In this document: piece by piece, positions 23,058 through 26,270 of the stretch
Numbering within the stretch: the first letter of the stretch is position 1
Layout: each line of letters begins with the position of its first letter
Origin: Blastocatellia bacterium
GTDB lineage: Bacteria > Acidobacteriota > Blastocatellia > HR10
Reading direction: 5' to 3'
Assembly: GCA_035573895.1 (NCBI GenBank)
Contig: DATLZR010000013.1
Location: forward strand, 699-64,698
DNA length: 64,000 nucleotides
The notes under the pieces: model-generated
Database searches by the model: none
What the model saw: only the letters and a program-made list of their open reading frames with translations
What the model was told of the DNA's origin: nothing
Made by a program: the position numbers and the translations under genes

Positions 23058-26000
23058 TCATAAGTGCACACTTCCTTCGCGCCACGGTTGAAAGTCTTGG
23101 TATTTATTCCGCCACACGCCGCGCGCTATCAGCCGTTCATAACTCTGGTCGCTGTGTCGCGCCAGCTCGCAGACGCGCACGCTGCCGTCATCGGCTTCAA
23201 AGAAGAATACACGCTCGTCACGGTGACCTCTCGGATAGACGAGACAATCACAGTTGCGCACCCGCTCTGAGCCACTGATACGCAACTCGCGCAGTCCCAG
23301 TTTCTTGAGCGCGCGATCAAATAACTCGCGCACGTCGGGGGCAGCAGCGCGGTAGGTGTCCCAGGCTTGCGCTGAGAGCCAGATGGGTTCAGGCTTTGCT
23401 TGTGCTACATGGTCACGGTAGGCTTCATAAAATGCCTCACCCGCGGGCGACAGCAGCGTGAAGCCTTCTTCCTCTGCGAGCAGCAACCGCACCTCCTCTG
23501 GCAATCCGCGCAGCCGTGCGTCCACTTCTGGCGTTGGGCGCAAGTCGGCATTAATCCACTCAAAGAACTCCTCACAGCTTGCCAGCAGCGAGTAATCCCA
23601 ACTGATAGGCGTGGGCGGCATTTCGATGATGTCACGGAAGGCTTCGTGAATGTAGTAAACGGGCACATCGAACAGCAACCCCACCAATGTCGCATAGGCG
23701 ATTTCCGCCTTGAACCCGCCCGTCGCATTGATGAGCACGCTGCGTCCCTGGGCTTTCTCGCGGCGAATCTGATCAATGAGCGTTGCCACGAGCGACCGCA
23801 AGCCCCGCATCTTGAACCGGCTCTCTGTATAGGTCAGGTCGGGCACTTCTATCACGCGGGTTTCGCATCCCGAGTTCTCGTAGTGCCGCGCCAACGCCTC
23901 CGCGCACTGCTTGCCCTCGACCGTTTGCGAGCACAGGAACACAATGCGCTCGTCGCCTTCTGTCAATAGCCGCGACAGCGAATTGGTTTCGGCGCTGGCT
24001 TTCACAGCGTCCGTCTGACGCAGGTAGTTAGCAAGCTGGTATTCATCGGGCTGCTGCTCGTTCAAATCCCGTCTGGCATTGCTTAGCAATGACGTGCCGA
24101 CAGTGGTCAGAATGGTACGCATAGAAATTGCCCTCCTTACCCGTTTTATGTCCTCTTGGAGTTCGTCGCTTTCCGTACCAACCTCCTGTAGGAGCGAACG
24201 GGCGCTTGCCAACAAAGTCAAAGCATCAAGAAAGTGGCTGTATACTTCTTCGACCAAACCCATCACATGAAGAGCGGCAGCATGTGTAACCTTGTCTCCA
24301 ACTTGCTGACTCAGCAGACGGCTGTGGTTAGCGAAGTCAGCAGCTTCGTCAAATCGCCCTTGCTCTAGACAAAGCCAGGCTAATGCTGCCTCCGTTTGTG
24401 CTTGTCCCAACTCGTTTCCTGCTTGTCGGTCTAACTCCAAACTCTGTCGGTATCGGTTTTCAGCGGCGTCCATTTTCTGCTCGTTGTATAACAACGCTGC
24501 TTCCCGACGAAGCCAGACGGCGCGTGCCGCATCGTCACCAACCTGCTCACACAGGTCAAGCGCTTGCTGGCAGAGAAGGCGTAGGTCTTCTGCCACTGTC
24601 CACAAGTCTTCAGCGCAGGCAAGCGCCTTTGCAGGTTCGCCTGCTTCCCGCCAGTGGTTGAACGCACGGCGGGTGTAATCCGCCCACCGCCGGCGGGCGT
24701 TTTCGTCCCAATCTCCTACGTCTGGTGAAATCTGTGTCTGCTTAACCTGCGTGCGTCGTTCTTCCAGCCATTCCGCAGCGCGAGCATGCAGCCGTTTCGC
24801 CTCCTCGCCTAACCTGGAACGCCAGTAGTCGCGGAGTATATCATGAAGAGAAAGACGATCGTCCGCATCGCGTTCTAACAAATGGGCATCAATCAACCCA
24901 TTAATGGCGTTACTCGTATCAGTCACAGCGGTTGCAGTGCACACTGCCTCCAGCAGCGCGCGCTCATGCGGCTCAGAGAAGATGCACGCTGCTCGAAGCG
25001 CATCGCGTTCAGAATCAGTGAGAATTTCCGTTAATTCGTCCAACCACCTTTTCATGTCACTTGACCAATCGGGCAGATCAAGGTGCAGCAGTTCGTCAAC
25101 GGAACGCCGCCGTGCAGCGAAGGCAGCCAGTTTCATGGCCTCTGGCTCACCACCGCACTTATGCCAGATGGCAAGAGCCTGTTCTTCACTCAACGTTTCC
25201 CGTAGAGCGTCTTCACACACTATGAGGTATTCACGAGCGAACTCTTGCGGCAAAGGGTCAAGGCGAAGGAACTTGTGGACTCCTGTTGGGAGTTCCGTGC
25301 TCTCCAGCACAGACGGCTCTCTACGCCCCAAAAGTAGCAACTTCGTCTGCCCTGGACTCCGGTCTATGGCTATCACCACTTGGTTTAAGGTCTCATGGGC
25401 AAGGAAGTAATTGTCCAACACAATAAGCCGCTGTTTCTGCCCTAGCCATCGCGTCAAGGCGTTCAATCGGCTTTCGTAAAGGTAACTGGCGTTGGTGAGT
25501 TGTTGGTAGTAATCGCTGTCCGCAGCAACAGGATCCTCAGCAATCTCCTTCGCCCACTCGTCAGCGAACGATTTAAGAATGCTTTCCATTGTTACCCGAG
25601 CTGAACAGTTCACCCAGTAGACTTTCCATTTGCCGCTTTGTTGGGCTTCGTCGCATAACTTTGCTGCAATACAGGTCTTACCGCGTCCAGGGGGTTCAGC
25701 GATGGACAGAGTCTTCTGTTCTTCATCCTCAAGCCACTGCCACAATTGTTCTAATTCCCTGTCTTTGTCTATGAACTTCCCGGGAGACGGTGGTGGTGAG
25801 AAAATGCCTATAGGAGAGGGCCTTGTTCGGAACTCCTCAGGAGTCGGCGGAGGCGGTTCTTCTAGCTCCCGCAATTGTTCAGCGATGATCACCGCTTCAT
25901 TTTGCAGAGATTTCGTATCCCGCATTTGCAGCCTAACGCTCTTGTAAAACTCAGAGACTGATGGCGGTGAATCGAGAACTCCCATCGCTCTCGCCTTTTG

Positions 26001-26270
26001 CGCGAGGAACTCCCATTCCTGTTTTACACGGTACGCAGGGTCTTTTATGACATCTTTCACATCGCGCTGACGAAAGAAGGAATAAACTCTCCACCAACGT
26101 CGTATTTGCCAGATACGAATACCCAATACATAACGCATTGCCCTGCGATAGATGCGCAAACGGGTGACTGCTTCAGAGGAATACCAACGGTATACGATCC
26201 AGCCAATCAGTGCTATTAAGAGCGCAGCAAGAAGCGCGGATATGACTTGAATTAAGATCTCTCGCCACAT
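23058..26270 (-). CDS. Large fusion protein of 1070 aa: N-terminal TM anchor, NB-ARC/STAND P-loop NTPase, TPR repeats, CARF domain, RelE/ParE-like C-terminus (Cami1-like).
   Basis: TM: [27 protein letters not shown]. NTPase: Walker A [15 protein letters not shown], Walker B [16 protein letters not shown], and a GxP/GLPL-like [15 protein letters not shown]. TPR-like helical repeats ([20 protein letters not shown]...). CARF signatures: [15 protein letters not shown] and [35 protein letters not shown]. RelE-like tail: [29 protein letters not shown]. Single uninterrupted ORF, directly downstream of cmr6. Confidence 0.75.
   Translation of the reverse strand: [1070 protein letters not shown]

What the first reader, a model, noticed from the sequence alone, without database searches (positions are those of the whole stretch)
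23058..26270. 1070-aa TM/NB-ARC-STAND NTPase/TPR/CARF/RelE-like fusion encoded directly downstream of cmr6
This is one uninterrupted ORF.

Domains, in order:
- an N-terminal membrane anchor
- a P-loop NTPase with NB-ARC-like motifs: Walker A GRGKT, Walker B [15 protein letters not shown], and a GxP-like [12 protein letters not shown]
- TPR-like helical repeats
- a CARF domain: [13 protein letters not shown] and [32 protein letters not shown]
- a C-terminal RelE/ParE-fold segment: [28 protein letters not shown]

CARF plus RelE alone is the architecture of the cA4-activated, ribosome-dependent mRNA interferase Cami1. Here that module is welded to a STAND ATPase/TPR sensor scaffold, and the gene sits at the 3-prime end of a Cmr operon whose Cas10 retains the GGDD cyclase motif. 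I am not aware of a described CARF effector with a STAND NTPase arm.

It could integrate cyclic-oligoadenylate signalling with a second, ATP-dependent sensing or oligomerisation step, possibly at the membrane.
Basis: partly seen in the sequence, partly recalled or inferred. Interest (0 to 1): 0.9.

Follow-up and report, generated by a model that had tools for sequence, protein, structure and literature searches.

The report
NLR-like ATPase fused to Cami1 effector
A type III CRISPR operon in a soil acidobacterium ends in a real but very rare 1070-residue gene that joins a membrane-anchored, plant-NLR-like ATPase switch to a complete copy of the known cyclic-nucleotide-activated ribosome toxin Cami1, an architecture I could not find described anywhere.

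Summary
The ORF is real: window 23058-26270 on the minus strand, 1070 aa, 27 nt after cmr6.

- Residues ~165-716 are an NB-ARC STAND NTPase plus TPRs.
- Residues 5-23 are a strong hydrophobic helix.

The fusion is not an artefact. Four independent assemblies carry it in frame, and the STAND part is under purifying selection (dN/dS 0.12-0.24, dS about 1 or more). It is extremely rare: four singleton sequences among ~15 billion proteins, and one representative among 1.84 billion.

New points:
- The STAND ORF reads through the former HD_4-cami1 intergenic spacer, with the old TAA out of frame.
- The ancestral Shine-Dalgarno and ATG of cami1 are kept in all three DNAs, so a free Cami1 may also be made.
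- One relative lacks RelE but keeps STAND-TPR-CARF.

Most likely function: cA4-activated translation arrest as in Cami1, with an added nucleotide-switch or oligomerisation layer whose coupling to CARF is inferred, not shown. I rate it a new variant of a known kind.

The parts
23058..26270 (-). Whole fusion gene, 1070 aa (identical to NCBI HXF04048.1, Blastocatellia MAG)
26282..26290 (-). Shine-Dalgarno AAAGGAGGT of the long ORF, 12 nt before the ATG at 26270. The cmr6 stop TAG is at 26298-26300.
26202..26258 (-). N-terminal hydrophobic helix, residues 5-23 ([19 protein letters not shown]). It is followed by Arg-rich sequence, which predicts N-out/C-in topology.
   Evidence: Kyte-Doolittle 19-residue mean 2.74. 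P0003 scores 2.26 at the same place; P0002 lacks it. No dedicated TM predictor was available.
25821..26201 (-). Poorly conserved helical linker, residues 24-150. It contains the RIYR-A motif shared with stand-alone relatives.
   Evidence: pN ~0.6
24801..25778 (-). NB-ARC STAND NTPase (NBD, helical domain, winged helix), residues ~165-490. Motifs: Walker A GRGKT 195-199, Walker B LIVLDN 282-287, sensor-1 LLLGRR, GxP GEP 374-376, MHD-like LHD 475-477.
   Evidence: Pfam NB-ARC, E 7e-12, 45.5 bits against a cut-off of 23.5. The profile hits the plant CNLs Sr35 and NRC2 and PH0952. Motifs are invariant in three homologues.
24123..24800 (-). TPR array, residues 491-716, about 11 helices
   Evidence: Pfam TPR_12; AF2 pLDDT >90; PDB hits to TPR proteins and PH0952
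24123..24167 (-). Junction: former 3' end of an HD_4 gene plus the intergenic spacer, now read in another frame as ...[14 protein letters not shown]
   Evidence: DNA alignment with L008 and L003
24132..24138 (-). Internal Shine-Dalgarno AAGGAGG, 9 nt before the internal ATG. It is the only AAGGAGG in the gene.
24120..24122 (-). Internal ATG (M717), the ancestral cami1 start codon
   Evidence: Stand-alone homologues align from their residue 1 to residue 717.
23598..24122 (-). CARF7 domain, residues 717-891, with S727 and K854 (the Ser/Lys of CARF7 ring nucleases)
   Evidence: Pfam Cas_APE2256, E 1e-34; alignment to Sis0811 S12/K169; invariant
23397..23597 (-). Winged helix-turn-helix domain, residues ~892-958
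23061..23396 (-). RelE-fold domain, residues ~959-1070
26298..34182 (-). Type III-B operon upstream: cmr1 33049-34182, cas10/cmr2 30119-33052 (GGDD), cmr3 29031-30122, cmr4 28088-29104, hicB-like 27770-28081, cmr5 27342-27737, cmr6 26298-27335

Best explanation
It is a genuine single gene in which a membrane-anchored, NLR-like NB-ARC/TPR STAND NTPase has been fused to the N-terminus of a complete Cami1-type type III CRISPR effector (CARF7-wHTH-RelE).

**Origin (shown):** a STAND-TPR ORF replaced an HD_4-domain gene that lay between cmr6 and cami1. It now reads through the old spacer in a frame that skips the old TAA and runs into the cami1 ATG.

**Function of the C-terminal part (inferred from family membership):**
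- The Cmr complex senses foreign RNA, and Cas10 (GGDD) makes cA4.
- cA4 binds the CARF7 dimer.
- The RelE domain cuts ribosome-bound mRNA and arrests translation.
- The CARF slowly degrades cA4.

**Function of the STAND part (inferred, least certain):**
- It is a nucleotide-binding switch or oligomerisation module coupled to the CARF, with cA4 acting in place of a distal sensor.
- The N-terminal helix either tethers the protein to the membrane or acts as a second effector.

**Second product (inferred):** the retained Shine-Dalgarno plus ATG at M717 probably also gives a free, ordinary Cami1 from the same mRNA.

**My sub-confidences:**
- Architecture and reality of the fusion: 0.95
- Cami1-like cA4-triggered mRNA cleavage: 0.8
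- Internal initiation: 0.5
- Functional STAND-CARF coupling: 0.4
For: **C-terminal module**
- PADLOC CARF7--CARF_RelE matches residues 717-1063 against profile positions 2-343 of 344, E 1.9e-116.
- The AF2 model has pLDDT 91.8.
- The top Foldseek hits are Cami1, 8phj and 8phb, E 2e-19.
- The module is 75-87% identical to hundreds of ~350-aa proteins. The three whose loci were inspected sit right after cmr6 or csm5.
- S727 and K854 align with Sis0811 S12 and K169 (PMC9638899).

**What is known of Cami1**
- It is cA4-activated and cleaves A-site mRNA (PMC11229360).
- It has intrinsic ring-nuclease activity (PMC12830947).

**STAND module**
- Pfam NB-ARC is above threshold, and TPR_12 is found.
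- The motifs are conserved.
- A profile hits PH0952, AfsR, Sr35 and NRC2.

**Reality and age of the fusion**
- Four in-frame members exist.
- All three with DNA lie directly after cmr6.
- dN/dS is 0.12-0.24 for the NBD, 0.14-0.18 for the TPR and ~0.08 for the CARF, with dS about 1 to saturated.

**Origin of the junction**
- Shown by the spacer alignment with HD_4-cami1 loci.

**Internal start**
- AAGGAGG or AAGGAG lies 8-9 nt before the ATG in all three DNAs, even though the encoded residues changed in L002 (RR to KGE).
- It is the only AAGGAGG in the 3.2-kb gene.
- The junction Met is kept in 4 of 4 members.

**Coupling of STAND and CARF**
- P0003 has lost RelE but keeps STAND-TPR-CARF-wHTH, with S/K intact.
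- The last TPR helix (702-716) runs without a linker into CARF strand 718-724.
- Stand-alone relatives carry extra TPRs where the CARF now sits, and carry a TM helix or a TIR domain at the N-terminus.
Against: - There is no biochemical data.
- The NBD is poorly modelled (pLDDT <50 for 136-200 and 287-337), so no structural argument about coupling can be made.
- Walker B is D-N, not D-D/E, so ATP hydrolysis may be weak or absent.
- Cami1 acts as a dimer that must enter the ribosomal A site. A 716-residue membrane-tethered extension on each protomer could hinder this.
- The conserved internal SD/ATG, and the independent loss of the TM helix (P0002) and of RelE (P0003), are also what one expects if the halves work separately.
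- Only four sequences exist, so the conservation arguments rest on very few lineages.
- No CRISPR array or cas6 was found in the 64-kb window, so activity of this locus depends on crRNAs supplied in trans.
Confidence: 0.55

Rival explanations
1. Neutral read-through fusion of two independent defence genes. The STAND-TPR part is a self-contained NLR/Avs-like sensor with its own trigger and its own N-terminal membrane effector. The working Cami1 is the 354-aa protein translated from the internal SD/ATG. Being joined in one ORF has no functional meaning.
For: - The internal SD and ATG are conserved in all three DNAs.
- The junction is a former intergenic spacer.
- Close stand-alone Cami1 homologues work without any STAND gene.
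- Stand-alone STAND-TPR relatives exist with a TM helix or TIR at the N-terminus.
- Modules are lost independently: P0002 has no TM and P0003 has no RelE.
Against: - The ORF has stayed continuous in four lineages separated by dS about 1 or more.
- P0003 keeps the CARF-wHTH fused to the STAND under strong constraint although RelE is gone.
- The STAND lost its distal TPRs exactly where the CARF is attached, and no linker separates the TPR from the CARF.
- The STAND-TPR module is seen only in this position, after cmr6, in all three loci.
Confidence: 0.3
2. The STAND-TPR-TM part is a brake or tether. It holds the toxic Cami1 module at the membrane or in an autoinhibited monomer, possibly also capturing the short isoform as a heterodimer. 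RelE can then reach ribosomes only after a second event (nucleotide exchange or a phage cue). In the RelE-less relative the fused CARF7 would act as a tethered ring nuclease or cA4 sponge.
For: - CARF7-wHTH without a nuclease is the architecture of the ring nucleases Sis0811 and Sso1393.
- S727 and K854 are conserved.
- The TPR is under purifying, not diversifying, selection (dN/dS 0.14-0.18). This fits a conserved host or intramolecular partner.
- The TM helix predicts a membrane location.
Against: - There is no direct evidence.
- P0002 lacks the TM helix.
- Most close Cami1 homologues need no such brake.
Confidence: 0.12
3. Assembly or sequencing artefact: two genes (a STAND protein and cami1) separated by an undetected stop or frameshift.
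For: - A TAA lies out of frame inside the junction (GACATAAAACGG), and an SD plus ATG follow it. This looks like a normal gene boundary.
Against: - Four independent metagenome assemblies, 57-73% identical, all keep the same frame across the junction.
- Protein-level conservation continues in that frame up to the Met.
- In the true two-gene relatives, the gene that uses that TAA is an unrelated HD_4 gene in a different frame.
Confidence: 0.02

Closest known systems
Cami1 (CARF-RelE; Allochromatium vinosum; PDB 8PHB and 8PHJ; Mogila et al. 2023)
   Same: - Same three-domain module, CARF7-wHTH-RelE.
- Encoded as the last gene of a type III operon with a cyclase-competent Cas10.
- The Ser/Lys of the CARF pocket are present.
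   Different: - Only ~22-25% identical to the solved protein. The match is to a different, very abundant branch of ~350-aa Cami1-like proteins.
- Carries a 716-residue N-terminal TM-STAND-TPR extension. No other of the 150 best representatives among 1.84 billion has more than ~110 extra N-terminal residues.
CARF7-wHTH ring nucleases (Crn1 'large' type: Sis0811, Sso1393)
   Same: - The catalytic Ser and Lys align (S727, K854).
- The RelE-less relative P0003 ends exactly like these proteins.
   Different: - The window protein has a RelE domain after the wHTH and a STAND module before the CARF.
NB-ARC/TPR STAND NTPases (archaeal PH0952, PDB 6MFV; AfsR; NB-ARC of the plant CC-NLRs Sr35 and NRC2; bacterial NLR-like/Avs proteins)
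   Same: - P-loop, sensor-1 Arg, GxP and MHD-like His.
- TPR array C-terminal to the NOD.
- The N-terminal ~150 residues are where relatives carry effectors (TIR in P0182; TM helices in P0173, P0212, P0216 and P0231).
   Different: - Walker B is D-N.
- The TPR array is short.
- A cyclic-nucleotide sensor plus a nuclease follow the repeats.
- No PADLOC Avs or other STAND-defence model matched.
STAND-TPR NTPases linked to minimal type I-E CRISPR loci (Shmakov et al. 2018, bioRxiv 10.1101/270033)
   Same: - A STAND NTPase with TPRs stably linked to a CRISPR-cas locus, often with a small membrane protein next to it.
   Different: - Those are separate genes in degenerate type I-E loci with no cOA signalling. 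Here the STAND is covalently fused to a CARF effector in a type III-B locus.
Cam1 (TM-CARF membrane effector) and other cOA effectors that act by oligomerising (Cat1, Cad1, CalpL)
   Same: - A membrane segment combined with a CARF. The general theme is that cOA binding drives assembly.
   Different: - A different CARF family (CARF8 for Cam1), no NTPase and no RelE.

Membership tests
Cami1 (CARF7-wHTH-RelE type III effector) | CARF domain of the CARF7 / Cas_APE2256 class | tested here: met
   Pfam PF09651 E 1.4e-34; TIGR02619 E 2.7e-22. The PADLOC CARF7 models match.
Cami1 (CARF7-wHTH-RelE type III effector) | Winged-helix domain between the CARF and the nuclease | tested here: met
   AF2 model, module residues 176-242. 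It aligns with Cami1, Sis0811 and Sso1393.
Cami1 (CARF7-wHTH-RelE type III effector) | C-terminal RelE-fold domain | tested here: met
   [not shown]
Cami1 (CARF7-wHTH-RelE type III effector) | RelE catalytic residues in place | tested here: inconclusive
   R1020, R1038/H1039 and Y1044 are invariant or nearly so in 62 homologues. By eye they correspond to RelE R61, R81 and Y87 (my own knowledge). No residue-level superposition was possible.
Cami1 (CARF7-wHTH-RelE type III effector) | Encoded in a type III locus whose Cas10 can make cOA | tested here: met
   27 nt after cmr6; Cas10 has GGDD at residue 730.
Cami1 (CARF7-wHTH-RelE type III effector) | Stand-alone protein of about 350-400 aa | tested here: not met
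   1070 aa with a 716-aa N-terminal extension. A 354-aa product from the internal SD/ATG is possible but unproven.
Cami1 (CARF7-wHTH-RelE type III effector) | cA4 binding and activation; ribosome/L12-dependent mRNA cleavage; ring-nuclease activity | not testable with these tools
   Needs biochemistry. Only the pocket residues S727 and K854 could be checked.
STAND NTPase, NB-ARC (AP-ATPase) clade | Pfam NB-ARC above the gathering score | tested here: met
   45.5 bits against 23.5, residues 171-393.
STAND NTPase, NB-ARC (AP-ATPase) clade | Walker A GxxxxGK[ST] | tested here: met
   PPGRGKT, 193-199. G195, R196, G197, K198 and T199 are invariant in three homologues.
STAND NTPase, NB-ARC (AP-ATPase) clade | Walker B hhhhD[DE] | tested here: inconclusive
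   LIVLDN: the first Asp is present, and the second acidic residue is Asn in all three fusions. The same D-N occurs in the relatives P0140, P0182 and P0231, while P0004 has D-D.
STAND NTPase, NB-ARC (AP-ATPase) clade | Sensor-1 Arg, GxP motif, MHD-type His in the winged helix | tested here: met
   LLLGRR (R316), GEP 374-376 and LHD 475-477. G374, E375, P376 and H476 are invariant.
STAND NTPase, NB-ARC (AP-ATPase) clade | C-terminal repeat array (TPR) | tested here: met
   Pfam TPR_12; 11 helices at pLDDT >90; PH0952 STAND-TPR E 3.5e-30 with a profile.
STAND NTPase, NB-ARC (AP-ATPase) clade | Nucleotide-dependent oligomerisation | not testable with these tools
   The AF2 NBD has low confidence. 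No multimer prediction was available.
Avs / other catalogued STAND defence systems (PADLOC) | Match to a PADLOC STAND-defence profile | tested here: not met
   Only CARF models and one weak TPR model matched. There was no Avs or NLR-like model at E <= 0.001.
Integral membrane protein | Transmembrane helix | tested here: inconclusive
   The hydropathy mean over residues 5-23 is 2.74, followed by a positive-inside pattern. No dedicated predictor was available. The helix is absent in P0002.

The most novel reading that the evidence does not exclude
A CRISPR second messenger gates an NLR-like switch.

- In this family the CARF7 dimer has replaced the distal ligand sensor of a bacterial NB-ARC/TPR protein.
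- cA4 would therefore trigger nucleotide-dependent STAND oligomerisation, in the manner of a resistosome.
- The assembly would act through whichever effector is present: clustered N-terminal transmembrane helices that damage the membrane, the RelE nuclease, or both.
- The distribution fits this. The window protein has both, P0003 has the TM helix only, and P0002 has RelE only.
- A short Cami1 isoform from the internal start would add a second, soluble arm.
Probability: 0.2. Interest if true: 0.85.

Novelty: new variant of a known kind. Interest (0 to 1): 0.62.

Why it matters
Cyclic-oligoadenylate effectors and STAND/NLR switches are two of the main signalling logics of prokaryotic immunity. 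So far they have been described separately.

A natural covalent fusion, conserved under selection, gives a direct test case for two questions:
- Can a CARF sensor drive, or be driven by, a nucleotide-dependent oligomerisation switch?
- Can a ribosome-targeting toxin work when it is tethered?

The preserved internal ribosome-binding site also makes this a candidate for two immune proteins from one ORF. The reconstructed origin (read-through of a spacer) is a clean example of how multidomain defence proteins are born.

Against this, the fusion is extremely rare: four sequences in about 15 billion. It may be a lineage-specific curiosity.

Tried and rejected
**Searches for more loci**
- The search for related loci with the STAND part found nothing. 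I ran it on GTDB species genomes twice (window-specific, then alignment-derived patterns) and on JGI metagenome contigs once. The family is absent from those collections or missed by the patterns.

**Sequence-only detection of RelE**
- This failed: no Pfam hit, and PDB phmmer and profile searches align only the CARF-wHTH. The RelE call rests on structure and on the PADLOC profile.

**Full-length AF2**
- The NBD is of low confidence, so I drew no conclusion on domain packing.
- The AFDB Foldseek library was not available.

**'De-fused' reading of L003**
- I first read the L003 locus as a descendant that had lost the STAND.
- Comparison with L008 showed that the sequence upstream of its cami1 is an internally deleted HD_4 gene. 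HD_4-cami1 is therefore the ancestral state.

**Internal promoter or RNA structure at the junction**
- There is no sigma-70-like site in 22400-26500.
- Folding z-scores around the internal start are about 0.

**CRISPR array near the operon**
- None was found in the window.

**Context of the nearest stand-alone STAND (P0004, L007)**
- Five upstream genes have no Pfam or PADLOC hit, so no CRISPR link could be shown.
- The contexts of P0140 and the other representatives could not be looked up.

**Literature**
- No paper combining CARF with STAND, NB-ARC or NLR in one protein was found.
- The 2020 CARF classification paper and the Cami1 Science paper are not held in the library.

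
Full report
**1. Observation**

The window holds one ORF at 23058..26270. It is on the minus strand, runs ATG to TGA, and encodes 1070 aa. 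The plus-strand reading is full of stops.

The gene starts 27 nt after the TAG of cmr6 and has its own AAAGGAGGT 12 nt upstream. Upstream on the same strand lie, in order:
- cmr1 (33049-34182)
- cas10/cmr2 (30119-33052)
- cmr3 (29031-30122)
- cmr4 (28088-29104)
- a HicB-like ORF (27770-28081)
- cmr5 (27342-27737)
- cmr6 (26298-27335)

Cas10 carries GGDD at residue 730. The protein is identical to NCBI HXF04048.1 from a Blastocatellia (Acidobacteriota) MAG, where it is annotated only as 'putative CRISPR-associated protein'.

**2. The C-terminal third is a complete Cami1-type module**

Evidence from profiles and sequence:
- Pfam finds Cas_APE2256 (CARF7) at 757-886, E 1.4e-34.
- The PADLOC profile 'CARF7--CARF_RelE' matches residues 717-1063 against profile positions 2-343 of 344, E 1.9e-116. 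The module therefore starts exactly at M717.
- Residues 717-1070 are 75-87% identical to hundreds of stand-alone 348-354-aa proteins. In the three loci inspected these sit as the last gene after cmr6 or csm5, with no STAND gene nearby (L003, L004, L006).

Evidence from structure:
- An AF2 model of the module built with 62 homologues has pLDDT 91.8.
- The best Foldseek hits are 'cA4-bound Cami1 in complex with 70S ribosome' (8phj) and apo Cami1 (8phb), E about 2e-19 over the whole length. The CARF7-wHTH ring nucleases Sis0811 and Sso1393 come next.
- Sequence methods alone do not see the RelE domain.

The CARF is not a relic:
- S727 and K854 align with S12 and K169 of Sis0811. Those are the residues reported as key for cA4 cleavage (PMC9638899).
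- Both are invariant in the family.
- dN/dS of the CARF-wHTH is about 0.08.

[quoted passage not shown] It also has intrinsic ring-nuclease activity (PMC12830947).

**3. The N-terminal two-thirds are an NLR-like STAND NTPase with TPRs and a hydrophobic N-terminal helix**

- Pfam NB-ARC matches 171-393 at 45.5 bits (cut-off 23.5), and TPR_12 is found.
- Motifs invariant in the three full homologues: GRGKT (Walker A), LIVLDN (Walker B, with Asn where D/E is usual), LLLGRR (sensor 1), GEP (GxP) and LHD (MHD-like).
- A profile of this module and its relatives hits the STAND-TPR protein PH0952 (E 3.5e-30), AfsR, and the NB-ARC of the plant CC-NLRs Sr35 and NRC2 (E about 1e-10).
- Residues 5-23 have a hydropathy mean of 2.74 and are followed by Arg-rich sequence.
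- In the full-length AF2 model (pLDDT 74.5) the TPRs and the Cami1 part are confident, but the NBD is not. The last TPR helix (702-716) runs directly into CARF strand 718-724.

The nearest stand-alone relatives are 29-40% identical NB-ARC-TPR proteins. They have more TPRs at the C-terminus. At the N-terminus they have nothing recognisable, a TM helix (P0173, P0212, P0216, P0231) or a TIR domain (P0182). No PADLOC Avs or other STAND-defence model matches.

**4. The fusion is real, old and very rare**

- Three further proteins carry the same in-frame junction (...RV[RK][RG]x[IV][10 protein letters not shown]). They are P0002 (1057 aa), P0003 (970 aa) and the fragment P0126.
- In all three loci with DNA, the gene follows cmr6 directly.
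- Between them synonymous sites are near saturation (dS about 1 or more). dN/dS is 0.12-0.24 for the NBD and 0.14-0.18 for the TPR. The STAND part is a selected protein, not decaying read-through.
- Each of the four is a singleton cluster among about 15 billion proteins.
- An exhaustive phmmer of the full-length protein against 1.84 billion representatives found only one protein, P0003, that matches both halves. All other top hits match either residues 717 onward or the STAND-TPR part.
- No hit was found in 185,579 species-representative genomes.

**5. How the fusion arose**

- In the closest stand-alone relatives an HD_4-domain gene lies between cmr6 and cami1. It is intact in L008 and internally deleted in L003.
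- The ~45 nt before the cami1 ATG in those loci comprise the HD_4 3' end, the TAA stop, AGGAGG and a spacer. This stretch aligns with the last codons of the TPR part in the fusions.
- In the fusions the frame is shifted by one base, so the old TAA (GAC ATA AAA) is not read.
- So a STAND-TPR ORF replaced the HD_4 gene and reads through the former spacer into the cami1 start codon.

**6. A second product is likely**

- The ancestral Shine-Dalgarno survives inside the ORF: GTAAGGAGG-N9-ATG in the window and L001, and GTGAAAGGAG-N8-ATG in L002. In L002 the encoded residues changed (RR to KGE) but the purine motif did not.
- It is the only AAGGAGG in the 3.2-kb gene, against 8 in 128 kb of both strands of the window. 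It uses two rare AGG codons, and of 11 internal in-frame ATGs only M717 has such a motif.
- The Met is kept in all four proteins.
- No internal promoter-like site or unusual RNA structure was found. A short isoform would therefore come from internal initiation on the operon mRNA.
- This is inference from three DNAs.

**7. Variation among members**

| Member | N-terminal hydrophobic helix | RelE | Notes |
|---|---|---|---|
| Window protein | yes | yes | |
| P0002 | no (genuine start, stops upstream) | yes | |
| P0003 | yes | no | ends ~10 residues after the wHTH; followed by a CARF4-PD-(D/E)xK (Can2-like) gene |

The constant core is STAND-TPR-CARF7-wHTH. This is the best, though thin, argument that the STAND and the CARF work together rather than merely side by side.

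**8. Mechanism**

Shown:
- The architecture, the context, the conservation and the origin.

Inferred from family membership (about 0.8):
- Cas10 makes cA4 on target RNA binding.
- cA4 binds the CARF7 dimer.
- RelE cleaves ribosome-bound mRNA.
- The CARF degrades cA4.

Inferred from anatomy (about 0.4):
- The NB-ARC is a nucleotide-binding switch or oligomeriser. The D-N Walker B suggests slow hydrolysis.
- It is coupled to the CARF, and the TM helix serves as an anchor or as a second effector.

The main rival (about 0.3) is that the two halves are functionally independent and the working Cami1 is the short isoform.

**9. Comparison and novelty**

- It works like Cami1 in its C-terminal part and meets every testable Cami1 criterion except being a stand-alone ~350-aa protein.
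- It meets the sequence criteria of an NB-ARC STAND, apart from the second Walker B acidic residue.
- STAND-TPR genes linked to CRISPR are known only as separate genes in minimal type I-E loci (bioRxiv 10.1101/270033).
- The 2025 CRISPR classification mentions STAND only in a figure legend for new type III variants, and I could not see the figure.
- The survey of type III effectors does not list such an architecture.
- Full-text searches for CARF with STAND, NB-ARC or NLR found nothing relevant.
- The 2020 CARF classification paper was not available, so a passing mention there cannot be excluded.

Verdict: a new variant of a known kind, of real but bounded interest because of its rarity.

Noticed in passing
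window 27770-28081 (-): A HicB-like antitoxin ORF (Pfam HicB_lk_antitox, E 7e-10) is inserted between cmr4 and cmr5. No HicA-sized partner ORF lies nearby. The related cmr operons (L002, L003, L004) have cmr4 directly followed by cmr5.
   Followed up: partly
window 23000-36000, and 34771-35568 (-): The cmr island has lower G+C (0.51-0.57) than its flanks (0.60-0.63), which carry housekeeping metabolic genes. Fragments of a DDE transposase lie just upstream of cmr1. No CRISPR array, cas6 or cas1/cas2 was found anywhere in the 64-kb window, so crRNAs must come from elsewhere.
   Followed up: partly
L008 33-647; L003 7695-7916: The closest stand-alone cami1 genes are preceded by an HD_4-family HD-domain gene between cmr6 and cami1. 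It is intact in L008 and internally deleted in L003. Its role in type III loci is unknown to me. Its 3' end and spacer became the fusion junction.
   Followed up: partly
L003 7941 against the called start at 8001: The database protein P0007 (334 aa) starts 20 codons too late. The true cami1 ATG, with its AGGAGG, is at L003 7941.
   Followed up: yes
L002 12913-13203: The relative P0003 ends right after the wHTH and has no RelE domain. It is followed 36 nt later by the start of a CARF4-PD-(D/E)xK (Can2/Card1-like) gene that is cut by the contig end.
   Followed up: partly
L001 3267-8947: Downstream of the P0002 fusion, two Csx15-like fragments (3267-3521 and 7767-8021) flank a 1378-aa ORF. That ORF has only faint helicase/Schlafen-helicase hits, so it may be an insertion into csx15. 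A TM+CARF8 (Cam1-like) gene follows at 8105-8947.
   Followed up: no
L007 1-7883: The nearest stand-alone STAND-TPR with known context (P0004) is preceded by five co-oriented genes (products of 740 aa [cut by the locus end], 217, 390, 397 and 885 aa). None has a Pfam or PADLOC hit. This may be an uncharacterised system.
   Followed up: no
window 3387-3520 and 59841-59976: There are four copies of a ~48-nt G+C-rich element with internal dyad symmetry, in two pairs 56 kb apart. It is likely a REP/MITE-like repeat.
   Followed up: no
window 36000-37500: There is a strong local G-over-C skew (+0.3). An ORF on the minus strand (36362-36757) encodes a Pro/Ala/Thr-rich product with no family hit. The region lies between the transposase remnants and a multihaem cytochrome c gene (37099-37908).
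   Followed up: no
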